A stretch of 64,000 nt of DNA, from contig JAOZVV010000002.1 in the NCBI GenBank assembly GCA_025869365.1, positions 11,495-75,494 on the forward strand, written 5' to 3'. This DNA comes from Pseudonocardia sp. (GTDB lineage Bacteria; Actinomycetota; Actinomycetes; Mycobacteriales; Pseudonocardiaceae). This document shows positions 10,181 through 29,173 of the stretch, piece after piece. A model generated the notes under the pieces. That model did not search any database, was not told the DNA's origin, and was given only the letters and a program-made list of their open reading frames with translations. The first letter of the stretch is position 1; every line of letters starts with the position of its first letter. The translations under genes and the position numbers were made by a program.

Positions 10181-11353
10181 GTGTCCGTGGCCCGGCGCGC
10201 AGTCCCCTCCGTCCCCGGTACCCGGTTGGCCGCGGTTCTCGGGACGCCGCGGAGGACCCCGCTGGGCCGCCCGTACCCGGATCACGCCGAGACGCCCGCC
10301 CGTCCTGATCGGGACCGGCCTGGTCCTGAAGGTCCTGACGGCCCTGACGCTTCTGGCGGCCCTGATCCTGACCGCTCCGATCCCGGCCGCTCCGTCCCCG
10401 CCGAGGTGTCCGACCCGCCGACCGTGCCCATCCCGTTGCCCCTGCCCGTACCGAGGCCGCCGGCCGGGTCCGTCCCGACGGGGGAGCCGAGGTGGGACGG
10501 TCGGGCGGGGCTGTCCGGGCCGGACCCGGATACCGGAGGCCTTCCGGAGGAGGCCTCCTCCGGATCGGCCGGTCGTGTCCGTGCATCCGGCGGGCCCGCG
10601 GCGCGCCCGAACACGCTCGGGAGACTCACCCGCAGGTGGGTCCCCGAGGGCTGGCGTGGTGCGCGGCTGGATCCAGGGCGTCCGGGCGCGGTCGCCCTCG
10701 TGCTGGTCGCCGTGGTCGCGGCGGCCATCGCGGCGGTGGGGGTGTGGAGCGGACGGCCCCAGGCGGAGCCGGTCGGCGGACTGCCGGTGGTGGGGATCGA
10801 CACCACGATGCCGTCGGCGTCCGGCGTGCCGGCCACCGCCACCGCCACCGCCACCGGAGACCCTCCGGCTGCCGGCAGCACCACGGGAGGGCCGTCCGCC
10901 GCGCCGGGCGCGCAGCTCGTCGTCAGCGTCGCCGGGCGGGTCCGCAGGCCCGGGCTCGTCCGGGTGCCGGACGGGTCCCGGGTCGCCGACGTCCTCGAGG
11001 CCGCGGGAGGCGCCCTGCCCGATACGGACCTGGCGCCCCTCAACCTGGCCCGCCGCGTCGCGGACGGTGAGCAGGTGTCCGTCGGGGTCCCGGCCGCGGC
11101 GGACGCCGCCACCGCCGGGACCGCCGCATCCGGCGGCACGGGCGCGGCCGCCGCGACGGGCGGGAAGATCGATCTCAACTCCGCCTCGCTCGAACAGCTC
11201 GACGGGCTGCCCGGGGTCGGGCCGGTCACCGCGCAACGCATCCTCGACTGGCGCGTCCGCAACGGGCGATTCGCGCGGGTGGACCAGCTCCGCGAGGTCG
11301 AGGGAATCGGGGAGCGACGGTTCTCCCAGCTCAAGGACCAGGTGACGGTGTGA
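10181..11353 (+). CDS. comEA: ComEA family DNA-binding protein (Pro-rich N-terminus, one TM, C-terminal helix-hairpin-helix)
   Basis: C-terminus KIDLNSASLEQLDGLPGVGPVTAQRILDWRVRNGRFARVDQLREVEGIG. TM segment AVALVLVAVVAAAIAAV. The start codon is uncertain. Confidence 0.8.
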   Translation: MSVARRAVPSVPGTRLAAVLGTPRRTPLGRPYPDHAETPARPDRDRPGPEGPDGPDASGGPDPDRSDPGRSVPAEVSDPPTVPIPLPLPVPRPPAGSVPTGEPRWDGRAGLSGPDPDTGGLPEEASSGSAGRVRASGGPAARPNTLGRLTRRWVPEGWRGARLDPGRPGAVALVLVAVVAAAIAAVGVWSGRPQAEPVGGLPVVGIDTTMPSASGVPATATATATGDPPAAGSTTGGPSAAPGAQLVVSVAGRVRRPGLVRVPDGSRVADVLEAAGGALPDTDLAPLNLARRVADGEQVSVGVPAAADAATAGTAASGGTGAAAATGGKIDLNSASLEQLDGLPGVGPVTAQRILDWRVRNGRFARVDQLREVEGIGERRFSQLKDQVTV

Positions 11354-14046
11354 GCGGCATCGTCGCGCGGGCTGCGTCCGAGGCGCCGGACGAGGTGGAA
11401 CCGCGCATCCGGCCGGACCTGAGGCTCGTCCCCGCCGCCCTCGCCACCTGGGCCGTCGTCCTCGCCGGGGTCGTCGCCGGGCCTCTCGGCGGGATCGCGG
11501 GCGTCGCGCTCGCCACCGTCGGCCTGCTCGCGGCCCTGCTGAGGCTGCGCGACGGTGGTCGGGGCGACGGTCGCACGGGCGGTGGTGGTCGGCGTGGTCG
11601 TGGTCGGCGTGGTGGTCCGGGCGGTGGCGGTCGGGGCGGCGCCGGGCAGGACGGCCGTGAGGGCGGCCGGCGCGGGCCCGCGCTGCTCGCCGCCGCGGGC
11701 TGCGCACTCGCGGCCGGGGTCCTGATCACCGTGCACGCGGTGCAGGTGCAGGAGCACCCGTTGCGGGTCGCGGCCGAGCGGGGGTCGGCGGCGACCCTGC
11801 GCGTCCTGCTCACCGACGACCCGCACGTCCTCACCTCGCCCGGTTACGGGGCGACGCCGGGTGGGGACCGGGTGCTGGTGGCGGCGGAACTCGTGTCCAC
11901 CTCCGTCGGCGACGGCACCTGGACCTCGGGCGGCAGGGTACTGCTGATCGCCCCGGCCGAGGGCTGGCGCGAGCTGCTGCCGGGGCAGGAGGTCCGTGCG
12001 GAGGGGCTGCTCGTGCCCGCCCAGCGCCCGGATCTCACGATCGCGGTGCTCCGGGTCCGCGGCCCGGCCACGGAGGTGGGCCCGCCGCCGTGGTGGCAGA
12101 GCGCGGCGGGAACCCTGCGGGACGGCCTGCGCGACGCGGCCGCACGCGCGCTCCCGGAGGCGTCGGCGGGCCTGCTTCCCGGGCTCGCGGTGGGGGACAC
12201 CAGGAACCAGACCTCGGAGGTCGAGACGGACTTCCGGGCTGCGGGCCTCACCCATCTCACGGCGGTCTCGGGCGCGAACCTCGCCATCGTGGGCGGGGCC
12301 GTGCTGTTCCTGCTGCGCCGGGCCCACGCCGATCCCCGGCTCGCCGCCCTGTGCAGCGGCCTCGCGATCGTCGGGTTCGTGATCCTGGCCCGGCCCTCGC
12401 CGAGCGTCGTCCGCGCGGCCGTGATGGGCGGCGTGGTGCTGCTGGCCCTCGCGGCCGGCCGCGCGCGGTCCGCGCTCCCCGCGCTGGCCGTCGCCGTGCT
12501 CGTCCTGCTGGTGGTGGACCCGTCGCTCGCCGTCGACGCCGGGTTCGCCCTGTCGGTGCTGGCCACCGCCGCGCTCGTGCTCATCGCCCCCGGATGGGCC
12601 CGGGCCTTCGGGCGCCGCGGTGTGCCGCCGGGAGCGGCGGAGGCGCTCGCCGTCCCGGCCGCGGCCTGCGTGGTCACCGCACCGCTGATCGCAGGGCTCA
12701 GCGGCCAGGTCAGCCTGGTGACGGTCCTGGCCAACCTGGTCGTCGTCCCGGCCGTGGCACCGGCGACGGTGCTCGGGGTCCTCGCGGCGGTCCTGTCCCC
12801 GCTCGGTGCAGACCTCGCGACGGCGCTGGCCTGGGTCTCGACCCCCGCCGTCGGGTGGCTGGTCCTCGTCGCGGACCGCGCCGCCGCCGTGCCCGGGGGC
12901 GTGGTGACGTGGCCGGACGGGCTGCTCGGGGCGGGGTTGCTCGCCCTGGTCCTGCTCGTCCTGGTGCTGTTCTTCCGCTCGCCGCGGTGGCGGGCGCTGC
13001 TGCTGGCGGTCCTGGCCGGGCTGCTGCTCGTGCTGGTCCCCACCCGGGTGAGCCGGCCCGGCTGGCCGCCGGCCGGCTGGGCGGTGGTGGCCTGCGACGT
13101 CGGGCAGGGTGACGGGCTCGTGCTCGCCACCGGAACCCCCGGCTGGGCCGTGCTCGTAGACGCGGGGCCGGACGACGGCCTGATCGACGCCTGCCTGAGC
13201 CGGCTCGGCGTCCGCGGGCTGGCGCTGGTGGTGCTCAGCCACCTGCACGCGGACCACATCGGCGGGCTCACCGGGGCGCTGCGCGGCCGCGCGGTGTCCG
13301 GGATCGCCGTCGGGCCGGCGCGCGAGCCGCGATGGGCGTTCGACCGGGTCGCGCGGGAGGCGTCCGCGGCCGGCGCGCCGCTCGTCGAGCTGGACCGGGG
13401 GCGGCGGCTGACCTGGCCGGGTCTCGTCCTGGACGTCCTGGCCCCGGTGCACCCGGCCACGTACGTCGACCCCGAGGACGGCACCCAGGTCAACGACACC
13501 TCGGTCGTCCTGCGGGCGCAGACACCGGCGGGCAGCGTCCTGCTCACCGGGGACGTCGAGCTCGACGCGCAGGCCGACCTGCTCGCGTCCGGTTCACTCC
13601 TGCGCGCGGACGTGCTCAAGATCCCGCACCACGGCTCGCGGTACTCGAGCCTGCAGTTCCTCGCGGCCGTGGCGCCGCGGGCGGCGTTGGTCAGCGTGGG
13701 GGCGGGGAACAGCTACCGGCACCCGAACCCGGGGTTGCTGGAGGCCCTGACCCGGGCGGGGGTCGCCGTGCGCCGGACGGACCAGTCCGGGGACCTCGCC
13801 GTCGTCGCGGATCCGGGCACGCCGGCGAGCCCGCAGCTCGTCGCGCGGGGGAGTCCGTTGCCGGCCCCACGCCGACGCGGCCCGCCCCGGGGTCGGGACG
13901 GGCCGCGTCGGAGGCCGAACGGTGCGGGGTGCTCGCCGAGGTCGCTCAGCCCTCGAGGAAGGACAGCGCCTCGCGCACGGCCTTGCTGGTGGAGGGCACG
14001 GTCGCGGTGGGACCGACCTGGCCGGACACCGCGTCGAGGGTCTTGA
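11350..14046 (+). CDS. comEC: ComEC/Rec2 family competence channel with C-terminal metallo-beta-lactamase domain
   Basis: GTG overlaps the comEA stop. Polytopic membrane core. MBL motifs VVACDVGQGDG, LSHLHADHIGG, KIPHHGS. The 3' tail overlaps the convergent thrC-like gene. Confidence 0.85.
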   Translation: MSGIVARAASEAPDEVEPRIRPDLRLVPAALATWAVVLAGVVAGPLGGIAGVALATVGLLAALLRLRDGGRGDGRTGGGGRRGRGRRGGPGGGGRGGAGQDGREGGRRGPALLAAAGCALAAGVLITVHAVQVQEHPLRVAAERGSAATLRVLLTDDPHVLTSPGYGATPGGDRVLVAAELVSTSVGDGTWTSGGRVLLIAPAEGWRELLPGQEVRAEGLLVPAQRPDLTIAVLRVRGPATEVGPPPWWQSAAGTLRDGLRDAAARALPEASAGLLPGLAVGDTRNQTSEVETDFRAAGLTHLTAVSGANLAIVGGAVLFLLRRAHADPRLAALCSGLAIVGFVILARPSPSVVRAAVMGGVVLLALAAGRARSALPALAVAVLVLLVVDPSLAVDAGFALSVLATAALVLIAPGWARAFGRRGVPPGAAEALAVPAAACVVTAPLIAGLSGQVSLVTVLANLVVVPAVAPATVLGVLAAVLSPLGADLATALAWVSTPAVGWLVLVADRAAAVPGGVVTWPDGLLGAGLLALVLLVLVLFFRSPRWRALLLAVLAGLLLVLVPTRVSRPGWPPAGWAVVACDVGQGDGLVLATGTPGWAVLVDAGPDDGLIDACLSRLGVRGLALVVLSHLHADHIGGLTGALRGRAVSGIAVGPAREPRWAFDRVAREASAAGAPLVELDRGRRLTWPGLVLDVLAPVHPATYVDPEDGTQVNDTSVVLRAQTPAGSVLLTGDVELDAQADLLASGSLLRADVLKIPHHGSRYSSLQFLAAVAPRAALVSVGAGNSYRHPNPGLLEALTRAGVAVRRTDQSGDLAVVADPGTPASPQLVARGSPLPAPRRRGPPRGRDGPRRRPNGAGCSPRSLSPRGRTAPRARPCWWRARSRWDRPGRTPRRGS

Positions 14047-15217
14047 GCCCGTCTCCGGTGATGAGCAGGACGGTCTCGGCGTCCGGGTCGATCTTCCCGG
14101 CCTCGATGAGCTTCTTCGCCGTCGCGACGGTGACGCCACCGGCGGTCTCGGCGAAGACACCCTCGGTGCGGGCCAGCAGCCGGATGCCCTCGACGACCTC
14201 CTCGTCTGTGACGTGCCCGACCGCGCCTCCGGTGCGCCGCACCGAGTCCAGCACGTAGGGGCCGTCCGCGGGGTTGCCGATGGCGAGCGAGCGGGCGATC
14301 GTGTCCGGCTTGACCGGCTGGATCACGTCGTGGCCGTTCTCGAACGCCGCGGCGACGGGCGAGCAGCCCGTGGCCTGCGCCCCGAAGATCGTGTACGGGG
14401 TGTCCTCGACCAGGCCGAGCTTCACGAACTCCCCGAAGCCCTTGTCCACCTTCGTCAGCTGCGAACCGGAGGCGACCGGGATGACGATCTGCTGCGGGAG
14501 CCGCCAGCCGAGCTGCTCGGCGACCTCGTAGCCCAGGGTCTTGGACCCCTCCGCGTAGTAGGGCCGGACGTTGACGTTCACGAACGCCCAGTCCTCGTGC
14601 TCCGCGGCGAGTTCGGTCGCCAGGCGGTTGACGTCGTCGTAGTTGCCGTCGACGGCGAGCAGCGTGCCGCCGTAGACCGCGGTGGTGGTGATCTTCGCCT
14701 GTTCCAGGTTGGAGGGGATCAGCACGACCGAGTCCCAGCCGGCGCGGGCGGCGGCCGCGGCGACGGCGTTGGCGAGGTTGCCGGTGGAGGGGCAGCAGAG
14801 GACCTTGAAGCCGAGCTCGCGGGCGGCGGCGAGGGCGACCGCGACGACGCGGTCCTTGAACGAGTGCGTCGGGTTGCCGGTGTCGTCCTTGACCCAGAGC
14901 TTGCGGAGGCCGAGCTCGGCGGCCAGCCGGTCCGCCCGGATCAGGCGGGTCAGGCCGGGCTCGGTGTTCGGGATGTCCCGGACGTTCGCCGGCACCGGGA
15001 GGAGGTCCCGGTAGCGCCAGATCGACTCGGGGCCGGCCTCGATCGACTCGCGGGTGACCGTGGGGAAGTCGTAGGCCACCTCCAGCGGCCCGAAACACTG
15101 CGGACACGCGAACTCCGCGGCGAGCGGGATCTGGTGGCCGCACTCGCGGCAGGAGAGCGCGCGAGCGGGGCCGAGGTCGTACGACGTGCCGGCAGGGATG
15201 TCTGCAGTGAGAGTCAC
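13946..15217 (-). CDS. threonine synthase family PLP enzyme with N-terminal Zn-ribbon (possible MetM-type homocysteine synthase)
   Basis: 423 aa. CRECGHQ...CPQCFGPLEV ribbon. PLP-lysine motif NPTHSFKDR. A SAM-I riboswitch lies immediately upstream. Confidence 0.9.
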   Translation of the reverse strand: MTLTADIPAGTSYDLGPARALSCRECGHQIPLAAEFACPQCFGPLEVAYDFPTVTRESIEAGPESIWRYRDLLPVPANVRDIPNTEPGLTRLIRADRLAAELGLRKLWVKDDTGNPTHSFKDRVVAVALAAARELGFKVLCCPSTGNLANAVAAAAARAGWDSVVLIPSNLEQAKITTTAVYGGTLLAVDGNYDDVNRLATELAAEHEDWAFVNVNVRPYYAEGSKTLGYEVAEQLGWRLPQQIVIPVASGSQLTKVDKGFGEFVKLGLVEDTPYTIFGAQATGCSPVAAAFENGHDVIQPVKPDTIARSLAIGNPADGPYVLDSVRRTGGAVGHVTDEEVVEGIRLLARTEGVFAETAGGVTVATAKKLIEAGKIDPDAETVLLITGDGLKTLDAVSGQVGPTATVPSTSKAVREALSFLEG

Positions 15218-15223
15218 GAGATC

Positions 15224-15370
15224 TCCTCATCTGTCCCGCGTGGTTCGCGGGCCGGAATTGGCACCTGGTTCGTCGACGAGCACACACCGGACGTGTGTGC
15301 GCGGATCGTCGTTCGACGCCGGTTGCCGGGGTTTCAACGGGCCGTTCCCTCTACCCCTCTGGATGAGCCA
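15224..15370 (-). promoter_or_regulatory. SAM-I (S-box) riboswitch; the P1 3' strand overlaps the SD of the downstream thrC-like gene
   Basis: Minus strand: GCUCAUCCAGAGGGGUAGAGGGAACGGCCCGUUGAAACCCCGGCAACC...CAGGUGCCAAUUCCGGCC...ACAGAUGAGGAG, then 5 nt, then GUG. All conserved S-box core blocks are recognisable by eye. Confidence 0.85.
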
Positions 15371-15518
15371 TCTTCAGTTGTCCCGGGGCGGCGCGCGCGA
15401 GCGCAGACCGGTCCCGATGGCGAAGACGGTACGGCACGACTTTCGATCTGCGAAAGTCGGAGTCCCCGATGTGGGAGGCGGGTCACGATTCGTCGGCCCC
15501 GTGCGTCACGATGAGGGG

Positions 15519-16490
15519 GTGAGCCCCGCCGTGTCCCCTCCCGCCCCCGTGCAGCTGATCGTGGGCGAGGAGGAGCTGCTGGTCGAGCGGGCGGTGGGCG
15601 ACGTGCTGCGGGCCGCCCGCTCGGTGGATCCCGAGGCGGAGATCCGCCGGTTCCGTGCCTCGGAGATCAGCCCGGGGGAGCTGGCCGGTTTCCTGAGCCC
15701 GTCGTTGTTCGCCGAGGGCAGGGTCGTCGTGGTCGCGGCGGCGCACGAGGCGAACAAGGAGATGGCCGCGGCGCTCACCGCCTACGCGGACGACCCCGCC
15801 GAGGGCATCGTGCTGGTGGCGCTGCACGCGGGCGGGGCGCGGGGCAAGGCCCTCGGGGACGACCTGCGCAGGCGCGGCGCGCACGTCACCACCTGTGAGC
15901 GGATCACCCGGGCCGAGGCCCGCGCGGACTTCGTCCGGTCCGAGGTGCGCCGGGCGGGCGGTTCGATCAGCCCGGACGCCGTCGCGGCCCTGCTGGAGGC
16001 CGTCGGCTCGGACCTCCGCGAGCTCGCCGCGGCCACCGGCCAGCTCGTCGCGGACGCCGGCGGCGCGATCGACCTGCACGCCGTCCGCCGCTACCACCGC
16101 GGCCGGGCCGAGTCCTCGGGCTTCGCCGTCGCGGACAAGGCGGTGGCGGGGGACCGGTCCGGGGCGCTGGAGGCCTTGCGCTGGGCGCTCGTGCTGGGCG
16201 TCGCTCCCGTCCTGGTGGCGGACGCCCTGGCGGACGCGGTGCGCACGCTCGCGAAGGTCGGTGCCGCGGGGCGGGGTGACCCCAACCGGCTGGCCGGGGC
16301 GCTGGGGATGCCGCCCTGGAAGGTCCGCAAGGCCCAGGGGCAGGTCCGCTCGTGGCGGCCGGAGGGCCTCGCGGTCGCGATCGCGGCGACGGCGCAGGTC
16401 AACGCGGACGTCAAGGGTGCGGCCGCGGACTCGGGCTACGCCCTGGAACGAGCGGTCCTCGCGATCGTCGAGGCCCGCAACCCCCGCTGA
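15519..16490 (+). CDS. holA: DNA polymerase III subunit delta
   Basis: ORF 15186..16490. Conserved start region ...VQLIVGEEELLVERAV. Alternative GTG starts at 15471 (GGAG 8 nt upstream) and 15501. Confidence 0.85.
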   Translation: MSPAVSPPAPVQLIVGEEELLVERAVGDVLRAARSVDPEAEIRRFRASEISPGELAGFLSPSLFAEGRVVVVAAAHEANKEMAAALTAYADDPAEGIVLVALHAGGARGKALGDDLRRRGAHVTTCERITRAEARADFVRSEVRRAGGSISPDAVAALLEAVGSDLRELAAATGQLVADAGGAIDLHAVRRYHRGRAESSGFAVADKAVAGDRSGALEALRWALVLGVAPVLVADALADAVRTLAKVGAAGRGDPNRLAGALGMPPWKVRKAQGQVRSWRPEGLAVAIAATAQVNADVKGAAADSGYALERAVLAIVEARNPR

Positions 16491-27925: not shown

Positions 27926-28512
27926 GCGCCGCGGCCGAGAACGTCGGCACGCCGGCCCCGGCCCGCACGGCCGGGCGGTGGACGGTCGTGCCGGCGGACA
28001 GCCGGGTCCGGTTCCGTGTCCGGGACAAGCTCGTGGCGACGGTCCACGGCTCCCTGCCGATCGAGGAGGGCGCGGCGGTCCTCGACGGCGACGGTGAGGT
28101 GACGCGCGCCTGGATCGGCCTGGCGGTGCCGGGAATCGCGACGGGGAACGCCCACCGGGACAGGGACCTGCAGAAACCGGGGCTCCTCGACGCCGCGTCG
28201 TTCCCCTCGGTCAGGGTCGAGGTGGAGGCCCGGTCGTCCGTCGCGACCGGGAGCACGGCGCGGGCCGTCGTCCACGCCCGCGGCCGCTCCGCACCGCTGG
28301 ACCTGACCGTCGAGACCGTCGCGGTCGACGCCACGGCCGCCGACACCTCCGCGGACCGGGCAGGGGTCCGGGTGACGGGCCGGCTGGACCGGACCCCGCT
28401 GGAGATCAGGGCACCGTCGTTCGTCATCGGCCGGTTCCTCGACCTCGAGGCCGACCTGATCTTCCGTCGGCAGCCGGACGACGACGATCCGGACGGCCGG
28501 GAAGGGCGCTGA
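27922..28512 (+). CDS. YceI-like domain protein
   Basis: ATGA overlap with the upstream gene. ...WTVVPADSRVRFRVRDKLVATVHGSL... and ...GNAHRDRDLQKPGLLDAASFPS... match the YceI pattern. Confidence 0.75.
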   Translation: MSAAAENVGTPAPARTAGRWTVVPADSRVRFRVRDKLVATVHGSLPIEEGAAVLDGDGEVTRAWIGLAVPGIATGNAHRDRDLQKPGLLDAASFPSVRVEVEARSSVATGSTARAVVHARGRSAPLDLTVETVAVDATAADTSADRAGVRVTGRLDRTPLEIRAPSFVIGRFLDLEADLIFRRQPDDDDPDGREGR

Positions 28513-28555
28513 CGGGAGCCTTGGCCGGACCGGCCGGGCGTCCTACCGTGGGCCG

Positions 28556-29173
28556 ATGCGCAGCGACGACGTGCGGGAGGTGGCCCAGGTCTGCACCTCG
28601 GCGCTGAGTCACATGCTGGAACGCGCCCGGGATCCCGGCACGGACTGGGCGGCGCGCGCGGGGGATCTCGACATGAGTGTGGCCGAGGTCGTGGCCCACA
28701 CCGGGCAGCGGGTGCTGCTGTTGGCGACGGACCTGGCCGGCGGCCCGGCGGGCCTCGGCACGGTGGAGGTGCGGATCACCGCGCACGCCCCGCCCGCGGC
28801 CCTGGTGGCGACGGTCCGCACCGCGGCCGAGGTGCTGGCCGCCGTGCTGGACGCCACCCCGGAGGACGCCCGCGGTTTCCATCCGGACGGCCTCTCGGAC
28901 CCCTCCGGCTTCGCCGCGCTGGCGTGCGACGAGATGCTGGTGCACACCGACGACGCCGCGCACGGCCTCGGCGTGTCCTTCGTCCCGGACCCGCACCTGG
29001 CCGCCCGGGTCCTGCGCCGGCTCTTCCCGTGGGCGCCGCGACACGAGCTCTCCTGGCCGACGCTGCGCTGGGCGAACGGCCGGTCCCCGCTGGGGGACCG
29101 GCCCCGTCAGGAGTCCTGGCGGCCGCTCTGCGTGCCGCTGACGGAGTGGGACGGGGCCAGGCCCGTGCCCTAG
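28556..29173 (+). CDS. DinB/mycothiol-maleylpyruvate-isomerase N-terminal-like protein
   Basis: 205 aa. AEVVAHTGQ... / ...DEMLVHTDD... is a His-containing four-helix pattern. This is a weak assignment. Confidence 0.55.
   Translation: MRSDDVREVAQVCTSALSHMLERARDPGTDWAARAGDLDMSVAEVVAHTGQRVLLLATDLAGGPAGLGTVEVRITAHAPPAALVATVRTAAEVLAAVLDATPEDARGFHPDGLSDPSGFAALACDEMLVHTDDAAHGLGVSFVPDPHLAARVLRRLFPWAPRHELSWPTLRWANGRSPLGDRPRQESWRPLCVPLTEWDGARPVP

What the first reader, a model, noticed from the sequence alone, without database searches (positions are those of the whole stretch)
13946..15370. SAM-I riboswitch controlling a Zn-ribbon threonine-synthase homologue inserted between comEC and holA (MetM-type candidate)
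A textbook S-box precedes the gene: GCUCAUCCAGAG...GAGGGA..GGCCCGUUGAAACCCCGGCAACC...GGUGCCAAUUCCGGCC...ACAGAUGAG. Its P1 3' strand overlaps the GAGGAG SD, implying a translational OFF switch.

SAM control makes little sense for a true threonine synthase. It fits a methionine-branch enzyme. As I recall, Streptomyces work described ThrC-family MetM making homocysteine from O-phosphohomoserine with a sulfur-carrier partner, MetO. No small carrier gene is adjacent here. As I recall the equivalent mycobacterial locus, it lacks such a gene at this position, which would make this an insertion into a conserved backbone.
Basis: partly seen in the sequence, partly recalled or inferred. Interest (0 to 1): 0.6.

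Follow-up and report, generated by a model that had tools for sequence, protein, structure and literature searches.

The report
SAM-riboswitch-controlled MetM gene without its carrier
A SAM-sensing RNA switch in a Pseudonocardia genome controls a gene labelled "threonine synthase" that belongs to the MetM family, which makes the methionine precursor homocysteine; the pathway was published for Streptomyces in 2024, so this copy is ordinary, except that it has no sulfur-carrier gene of its own.

Summary
Rfam's SAM-I model hits 15224-15369(-) at 82.4 bits (cut-off 44.4). The aptamer's 3' P1 strand runs into the GAGGAG ribosome-binding site, 5 nt before the GTG of a 423-aa ThrC-family gene (13946-15217, -).

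The protein is not the housekeeping threonine synthase. The genome has a separate hom-thrC-thrB operon. The window protein is 36% identical to that ThrC and 67% identical to the Streptomyces metM product. It sits in a well-separated clade with Streptomyces metM.

Riboswitch, gene and divergent holA are conserved in all 80 Pseudonocardiales loci fetched, so the placement is old and family-wide.

No metO lies nearby. Pseudonocardiaceae keep only the CysO-type carrier, in mec-cysO-cysM. In this assembly that operon falls in a contig break.

Best reading: a SAM-repressed, probably translationally controlled MetM-type homocysteine synthase. It likely borrows CysO as sulfur donor.

The system is already published (Hasebe et al. 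2024). This scan has noted it 229 times, once in another Pseudonocardia with the same arrangement. Interest is low. The only open point is the shared carrier.

The parts
15224..15369 (-). SAM-I (S-box) riboswitch aptamer, P1-P4 complete, with a long P3 insertion
   Evidence: RF00162 at 82.4 bits, E 6.6e-18, model positions 1-108 of 108. nhmmer finds the homologous element upstream of the gene in 80/80 Pseudonocardiales, 29/29 other Actinomycetes and 80/80 Streptomyces loci.
15223..15228 (-). Shine-Dalgarno GAGGAG; its first three bases belong to the P1 3' strand GAUGAG
   Evidence: Read from the sequence. The same fusion AGAUGAG-GAG... with a start codon 5-14 nt later occurs in 80/80 relatives. 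No terminator-like site was found.
13946..15217 (-). metM-type gene: a ThrC-family PLP enzyme and predicted homocysteine synthase, 423 aa, GTG start, stop codon included
   Evidence: PALP 235 bits and TIGR00260 282 bits. 67% identity to Streptomyces MetM against 36% to the genome's own ThrC. The MetM clade has 99 SH-aLRT support.
15095..15151 (-). N-terminal Cys4 motif (C23, C26, C38, C41; CxxC-x11-CxxC), a putative zinc ribbon that canonical ThrC lacks
   Evidence: Translation. Conserved in Streptomyces MetM and in 174/189 orthologues. No Pfam domain matched it, so zinc binding is inferred.
14855..14857 (-). Codon of Lys121 in the SFKDR motif, the predicted PLP Schiff-base lysine
   Evidence: It aligns with the same motif in the genome's own ThrC and in Streptomyces MetM. 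The [ST]FKDR motif is present in 189/189 orthologues.
11350..14046 (+). comEC, convergent flank; its open frame runs 101 nt into the 3' end of metM
   Evidence: Pfam Competence plus Lactamase_B domains, the last ending at residue 784 of 898. Syntenic in most of the 80 loci.
15519..16490 (+). holA (DNA polymerase III delta), the divergent flank
   Evidence: Pfam DNA_pol3_delta_C. Present divergently in 79 of the 80 loci; the remaining locus is cut short.

Best explanation
The gene encodes a MetM-type homocysteine synthase. This is a threonine-synthase-fold PLP enzyme that takes O-phospho-L-homoserine, made by the hom-thrC-thrB operon's ThrB, and replaces the phosphate with sulfur to give homocysteine. 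It provides a second route to homocysteine beside the genome's MetX/MetY route. Its leader is a SAM-I riboswitch. When SAM is plentiful the aptamer closes helix P1, whose 3' strand contains the first half of the ribosome-binding site. Initiation at the GTG 5 nt downstream is then blocked, which makes this a translational OFF switch. Pseudonocardiaceae have no MetO. The sulfur donor is therefore most likely the thiocarboxylate of CysO from the mec-cysO-cysM operon, charged by the MoeZ-type E1/rhodanese. What is shown: the aptamer, the P1/SD overlap, orthology to Streptomyces metM, the presence of ThrB and MoeZ, and CysO being the only carrier of this kind in the family. What is inferred: the enzyme's activity, the direction and level of regulation, and the use of CysO.
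For: Aptamer. Only 6 nt separate the aptamer from the start codon, no terminator is found, and the P1/SD fusion is conserved in 80/80 loci. Orthology: 67% identity over 412 aa to the gene that follows a SAM riboswitch and precedes metO in Streptomyces. MetM and ThrC form separate clades, at 99 and 97 SH-aLRT, on long branches. A separate hom-thrC-thrB operon exists. The riboswitch accompanies the gene in every locus fetched: 80 Pseudonocardiales, 29 from other families and 80 Streptomyces. PMC12172450 reports that S. albulus metM carries an upstream SAM riboswitch. PMC13759103 lists MetM, MetO, Mec and MoeZ as experimentally supported. For the carrier, 79 of 80 other Pseudonocardiaceae genomes have a carrier 57-66% identical to MetO. 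All 14 of those examined lie in mec-cysO-cysM, and they group with Streptomyces CysO rather than MetO at 96 SH-aLRT. Among 301 Actinomycetes genomes, 28 lack any such carrier. Only three of those 28 have a MetM orthologue, all in incomplete assemblies, and this genome is one of them. A MoeZ-type ThiF-plus-rhodanese gene is present.
Against: No activity was measured, and the primary paper (Hasebe et al. 2024) could not be read here. This assembly contains no CysO/MetO-type gene at all. Its presence is inferred from a contig that ends inside cysM, where relatives have cysO next door. Simple thermodynamic folding does not give a clear ON/OFF pair: the SD is mostly paired in every modelled state. 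CysO is common in Actinomycetes with or without MetM, so co-occurrence is weak evidence that MetM uses it. The protein scores above NCBIfam's cut-off for thrC.
Confidence: 0.8

Rival explanations
1. The enzyme is a MetM-type homocysteine synthase that needs no carrier in these lineages. It takes free sulfide directly, which would make it an O-phosphohomoserine sulfhydrylase and would explain the loss of metO.
For: No metO lies next to the gene in 80/80 Pseudonocardiales loci or in 19 of 29 loci from other Actinomycetes families. This assembly shows no carrier gene.
Against: Every reasonably complete MetM-bearing genome sampled keeps at least one CysO/MetO-family carrier. The genome also has a MoeZ-type activator. 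The missing carrier in this assembly is accounted for by a contig break inside cysM.
Confidence: 0.15
2. It is a genuine second threonine synthase (ThrC2), and the SAM riboswitch balances threonine against methionine flux at the O-phosphohomoserine branch point.
For: TIGR00260 scores 282 bits against a cut-off of 167. The closest solved structures are all threonine synthases, with E 1e-48 to 1e-52.
Against: The protein is 36% identical to the genome's own ThrC but 67% identical to Streptomyces MetM. The two clades are separate. A complete hom-thrC-thrB operon already exists. In many lineages the orthologues are fused into an operon with a sulfur carrier. PMC13759103 lists the Streptomyces member as a homocysteine synthase with experimental evidence.
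Confidence: 0.03
3. The riboswitch acts on transcription, through Rho-dependent termination or altered mRNA stability, and not on translation initiation.
For: Folding does not produce a clearly accessible SD in the modelled SAM-free state. Rho-dependent riboswitch control is known in other bacteria (this rests on my own knowledge).
Against: The aptamer ends 6 nt before the start codon and there is no intrinsic terminator. The P1 3' strand is physically part of the SD in 80/80 relatives. That is the classic arrangement for translational control, although secondary Rho effects are not excluded.
Confidence: 0.1

Closest known systems
MetM/MetO (with MoeZ and Mec) O-phospho-L-homoserine route to homocysteine in Streptomyces albulus (Hasebe, Adachi, Maruyama, Hamano 2024, Appl Environ Microbiol 90:e01247-24; seen here only through PMC12172450 and PMC13759103)
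   Same: Same ThrC-fold enzyme family: 67% identity to Streptomyces orthologues, the same Cys4 N-terminus and the same PLP-lysine motif. A SAM-I riboswitch sits directly upstream. ThrB supplies the substrate, and a MoeZ-type activator is present.
   Different: No metO follows the gene, and no MetO orthologue was found in the 80 other Pseudonocardiaceae genomes sampled, whose best-matching carrier, in all 14 cases examined, is a CysO-type gene in mec-cysO-cysM. The gene lies between comEC and holA, whereas in Streptomyces it lies with metO next to cold-shock-protein-like and chaperonin-like ORFs (not family-checked). The activity of this member is untested.
CysM/CysO/Mec/MoeZ thiocarboxylate-dependent cysteine synthesis of Mycobacterium tuberculosis (named from my own knowledge of the literature)
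   Same: The chemistry has the same logic: a PLP enzyme replaces the phosphate of an O-phospho amino acid with sulfur from a GG-tailed carrier thiocarboxylate. The same mec-cysO-cysM operon is present in the genus, and CysO is the proposed donor here.
   Different: The enzyme has a different fold subfamily (CysM/CysK type against ThrC type). The substrate is O-phosphoserine, not O-phosphohomoserine. Rfam found no riboswitch on mec-cysO-cysM.
Canonical threonine synthase ThrC (TIGR00260; PDB 2D1F, 6CGQ, 1UIM)
   Same: Same PLP fold type II, the same predicted substrate (O-phosphohomoserine), and a score above the thrC HMM cut-off.
   Different: It has an extra Cys4 N-terminus of about 60 aa, is only 36% identical, forms a separate clade, lies outside the hom-thrC-thrB operon, and is under SAM control.
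SAM-I riboswitch, RF00162 (S-box)
   Same: Full-length match to the four-helix aptamer with a conserved core, located in the 5' leader of a sulfur-metabolism gene.
   Different: There is no terminator/antiterminator platform like that of the Bacillus S-box. P1 itself carries half of the SD. P3 carries an insertion of about 50 nt.

Membership tests
SAM-I riboswitch (RF00162) | Covariance-model score above Rfam's gathering threshold over the whole model | tested here: met
   82.4 bits against 44.4, model positions 1-108 of 108, E 6.6e-18
SAM-I riboswitch (RF00162) | Lies in the 5' leader, on the same strand, of a methionine/sulfur-metabolism gene, and is conserved there in relatives | tested here: met
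   It ends 6 nt before the start codon. It is found upstream of the orthologue in all 189 fetched loci. Rfam confirmed it in two Streptomyces loci.
SAM-I riboswitch (RF00162) | Binds SAM and changes gene expression | not testable with these tools
   Needs in-line probing or ITC, plus reporter assays
MetM homocysteine synthase | Orthology to the characterised Streptomyces MetM, separate from ThrC | tested here: met
   67% identity to the Streptomyces riboswitch-metM-metO gene. The MetM clade has 99 and the ThrC clade 97 SH-aLRT support. The S. albulus sequence itself was not among the loci fetched.
MetM homocysteine synthase | ThrC-fold PLP enzyme with the Schiff-base lysine | tested here: met
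   PALP 235 bits. SFKDR with K121 is conserved in 189/189 orthologues.
MetM homocysteine synthase | Dedicated carrier gene metO adjacent | tested here: not met
   No MetO hit in the window, in this genome, or in the 80 Pseudonocardiales loci. The family's carriers are CysO orthologues. Adjacency is also missing in 19 of 29 loci from other families, so it is not universal in the clade.
MetM homocysteine synthase | Carrier-activating and carrier-processing partners (MoeZ, Mec) and a CysO/MetO-type carrier somewhere in the genome | tested here: inconclusive
   A MoeZ-type ThiF-plus-rhodanese gene is present. mec and cysO are absent from the assembly, but contig C58 ends inside cysM, where same-genus genomes have mec-cysO-cysM.
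MetM homocysteine synthase | Substrate supply: homoserine kinase makes O-phosphohomoserine | tested here: met
   thrB scores 187.9 bits and lies directly after thrC on C157
MetM homocysteine synthase | Converts O-phosphohomoserine plus carrier thiocarboxylate to homocysteine | not testable with these tools
   Needs an enzyme assay or complementation
Canonical threonine synthase (ThrC) | Score above the TIGR00260 cut-off | tested here: met
   282 bits against 167. The model does not separate MetM from ThrC.
Canonical threonine synthase (ThrC) | Groups with bona fide ThrC, is the genome's threonine-pathway copy, and lies in hom-thrC-thrB | tested here: not met
   A separate hom-thrC-thrB operon lies on C157. 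The window protein falls outside the ThrC clade.

The most novel reading that the evidence does not exclude
In Pseudonocardiaceae, and apparently in several other actinobacterial families with a solitary metM, a single sulfur-carrier protein, CysO, would feed two different PLP enzymes. CysM would use it for cysteine and MetM for homocysteine. Only the methionine branch would be gated by SAM, at the level of the enzyme and not of the carrier. The dedicated MetO of Streptomyces would then be a lineage-specific duplicate and not a requirement of the pathway.
Probability: 0.5. Interest if true: 0.4.

Novelty: new member of a known kind. Interest (0 to 1): 0.2.

Why it matters
Databases, including NCBIfam's thrC model, still call this protein a threonine synthase. 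Methionine-pathway reconstructions for Pseudonocardia and relatives will therefore miss a SAM-regulated second route to homocysteine. The one point beyond re-annotation is the carrier. The family keeps MetM but has only CysO. If CysO serves both enzymes, the MetM pathway needs fewer dedicated parts than first described, and cysteine and methionine synthesis share a sulfur-delivery step. That would be a modest refinement of a 2024 discovery, not a new system.

Tried and rejected
The primary paper (Hasebe et al. 2024) could not be read by PMC id or DOI. An attempt to fetch Rodionov et al. 2004 by a PMC id recalled from memory found nothing held, and the GapMind 2026 supplements were not held. 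What is said about MetM biochemistry therefore rests on citing papers.

A text search for earlier reports of an S-box before a Streptomyces thrC-like gene found nothing.

A Pfam ThiS search of this genome found only the thiamine ThiS (next to thiO) and a MoaD-like gene next to moaA. I do not favour either as the MetM partner, because neither resembles MetO or CysO. A MoaD-type donor is not excluded.

Unconstrained and constrained RNA folding gave no clear ON/OFF conformers: z-score -0.27, with the SD largely paired in all states. The case for translational control is therefore positional and comparative, not energetic.

Consensus promoter and terminator scans found nothing.

GC3-based gene calling was useless at this GC content.

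The careful IQ-TREE run did not finish in the time allowed, so the trees cited are quick searches with SH-aLRT support only.
Full report
**1. The observation**

The window comes from a Pseudonocardia genome: the nearest loci are P. lutea and P. oroxyli, at 92% protein identity.

Rfam's SAM-I model RF00162 gives one hit, at 15224-15369 on the minus strand. It scores 82.4 bits against a gathering score of 44.4, with E 6.6e-18, and covers all 108 model positions with a roughly 50-nt insertion in P3.

Six nucleotides downstream starts the ORF 13946-15217(-), which encodes 423 aa from a GTG. The closest relatives have ATG at the homologous position.

The protein matches PALP (235 bits) and NCBIfam thrC TIGR00260 (282 bits, cut-off 167). 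It carries CxxC-x11-CxxC at residues 23-41.

The flanking genes are ComEC (Competence plus metallo-beta-lactamase domains) and HolA.

**2. Which enzyme it is**

The genome holds a second, higher-scoring thrC (307 bits, 365 aa). It sits between homoserine dehydrogenase and homoserine kinase on contig C157.

The window protein is 36% identical to that ThrC. It is 67% identical over 412 residues to the gene that, in two Streptomyces genomes, follows a SAM-I riboswitch (74-78 bits) and precedes a 91-aa GG-tailed carrier. The Cys4 motif and the SFKDR lysine motif are both conserved in that alignment.

That Streptomyces gene is 85-97% identical to 80 named Streptomyces loci. All 80 carry riboswitch, gene and carrier. 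This is the metM-metO arrangement.

PMC13759103 lists MetM, MetO, Mec and MoeZ of Streptomyces as experimentally supported. PMC12172450 states that S. albulus metM has an upstream SAM riboswitch. Both cite Hasebe et al. 2024.

In a quick maximum-likelihood tree of 34 sequences, 25 MetM-type proteins form one group (SH-aLRT 99) and six canonical ThrC proteins form another (97). The two groups are joined by long branches. The window protein sits inside a Pseudonocardiaceae subclade (support 100).

The closest solved structures are all ordinary threonine synthases. No MetM structure is available by sequence search.

**3. Conservation and placement**

All 80 Pseudonocardiales loci fetched have the riboswitch directly upstream of the gene. 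All but one truncated locus have a divergent holA. comEC is convergent downstream in most of them, sometimes with 1-3 kb of other DNA in between.

In a sample of 300 other Actinomycetes genomes, most have an orthologue at 66-77% identity. Twenty-nine of 29 such loci have the riboswitch.

The sampled genomes of a second family in the same order show only ThrC-level similarity. In two of them comEC abuts holA directly.

The position between comEC and holA is therefore a family-wide feature of Pseudonocardiaceae and not a recent insertion.

**4. The switch**

The aptamer's 3' P1 strand GAUGAG overlaps the GAGGAG site (15228-15223), which lies 5 nt before the GTG. There is no room for a terminator, and none is found.

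In all 80 relatives AGAUGAG runs straight into GAGGAG or GAGGAAAGGA, with a start codon 5-14 nt further on. This supports SAM-dependent occlusion of the ribosome-binding site.

Folding calculations did not help. The SD is mostly paired whether P1 is forced or blocked. The direction and the level of control therefore remain inferred from position.

**5. The missing carrier**

tblastn with Streptomyces MetO finds nothing in this assembly (best E 0.13) and nothing in the 80 related loci. The Pfam ThiS model finds only the thiamine ThiS and a MoaD-like gene.

Yet 79 of 80 other Pseudonocardiaceae genomes, including both from the same genus, have a carrier 57-66% identical to MetO. In all 14 cases examined it lies in mec-cysO-cysM.

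Streptomyces has this operon too, in addition to metO. In a tree of the carriers, those next to cysM and those next to metM separate on one branch (SH-aLRT 96). The Pseudonocardiaceae carriers fall with Streptomyces CysO. The family therefore has CysO but no MetO.

In this assembly (90% complete, 200 contigs), contig C58 ends inside cysM. Only CysM residues 139-316 are present, at the last bases of the contig. mec and cysO are missing altogether. The apparent absence of any carrier is thus an assembly break and not evidence of loss.

A MoeZ-type ThiF-plus-rhodanese gene is present.

Across 301 Actinomycetes genomes, 28 lack a CysO/MetO-type carrier. Only three of those 28 have a MetM orthologue: this genome and two assemblies that are 84-86% complete. 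A solitary metM with a single CysO-level carrier also recurs in several other families.

**6. Pathway context**

The genome also has metY-metX. MetM is therefore a second route to homocysteine. Rfam finds no riboswitch on metY-metX, nor on mec-cysO-cysM of the two same-genus genomes. The MetM branch is the one placed under SAM control.

**7. Verdict**

This is an ordinary Pseudonocardia member of the published riboswitch-controlled MetM system.

This scan has noted the same system 229 times in at least 216 genomes. One earlier report on another Pseudonocardia has the same comEC/holA placement and also proposes CysO as the carrier.

What remains open, and only modestly interesting, is whether CysO really serves MetM or the enzyme uses sulfide.

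**Unpublished genomes**

The tallies include genomes flagged as unpublished: G006, G014, G023, G029, G031, G035, G042, G262, G304, G338 and G362. Loci L096 (G035) and L102 (G262) are among the 29 loci. Loci L126 (G338) and L133 (G362) are among the 14 carrier contexts and the rows of the tree. None of the conclusions depends on these genomes alone.

Noticed in passing
G000 contig C119: 23775-23871(-) and 24078-24197(+) (loci L010, L249): A SAM-I riboswitch and a SAM-IV riboswitch lie back to back about 200 bp apart on opposite strands. The SAM-I element precedes a sarcosine/N-methyltryptophan-oxidase-like gene, an unusual target for SAM control. The SAM-IV element precedes a CysK/CBS-like PALP gene.
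   Followed up: partly
G000 contig C16: 84131-84225(-) (L009) and 68382-68497(+) (L248): A third SAM-I riboswitch precedes a peptide/nickel-type ABC substrate-binding protein, possibly a methionine or peptide importer. A strong SAM-IV hit (109 bits) lies 16 kb away, and its target gene was not examined.
   Followed up: partly
window 13946-14046: The comEC open frame runs 101 nt into the 3' end of the convergent metM gene. ComEC's last Pfam domain ends at residue 784 of 898, and in relatives the ComEC alignment mostly stops outside metM, so the tail looks like read-through of GC-rich antisense DNA. The scan has already noted this separately.
   Followed up: partly
window 15370-15392 (-), and the same position in L011-L090: A leader motif of the form CACAAC(U/C)G(A/C)AUA(C/U)(C/G)G, directly 5' of P1, is conserved across nearly all 80 Pseudonocardiales loci. 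Many loci have a TANNNT-like hexamer a few bases further upstream. It may mark the transcription start or an extra regulatory contact; I have no explanation.
   Followed up: no
G000 contig C93: about 28400-28711(+) (L092 1430-1740): The MoaD-like GG-tailed protein next to moaA begins with about five tandem copies of a threonine-rich hexapeptide (TRTATT-like), an odd low-complexity N-terminus for a sulfur carrier.
   Followed up: no
G000 contig C140: 13339-14322(+) (L003): A third, distant ThrC-like paralogue scores 122 bits to TIGR00260, below the cut-off. It has counterparts in a same-genus genome and in a genome of another family of the order, and forms its own long-branched group in the tree. 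Its function was not examined.
   Followed up: no
G000 contig C125: 22920-25368(+) (L241): The metY-metX pair for the O-acetylhomoserine route to homocysteine is present, and no Rfam family was detected on locus L241, which starts about 1.5 kb upstream of metY. SAM control in this genome therefore falls on MetM and not on the classical route.
   Followed up: partly
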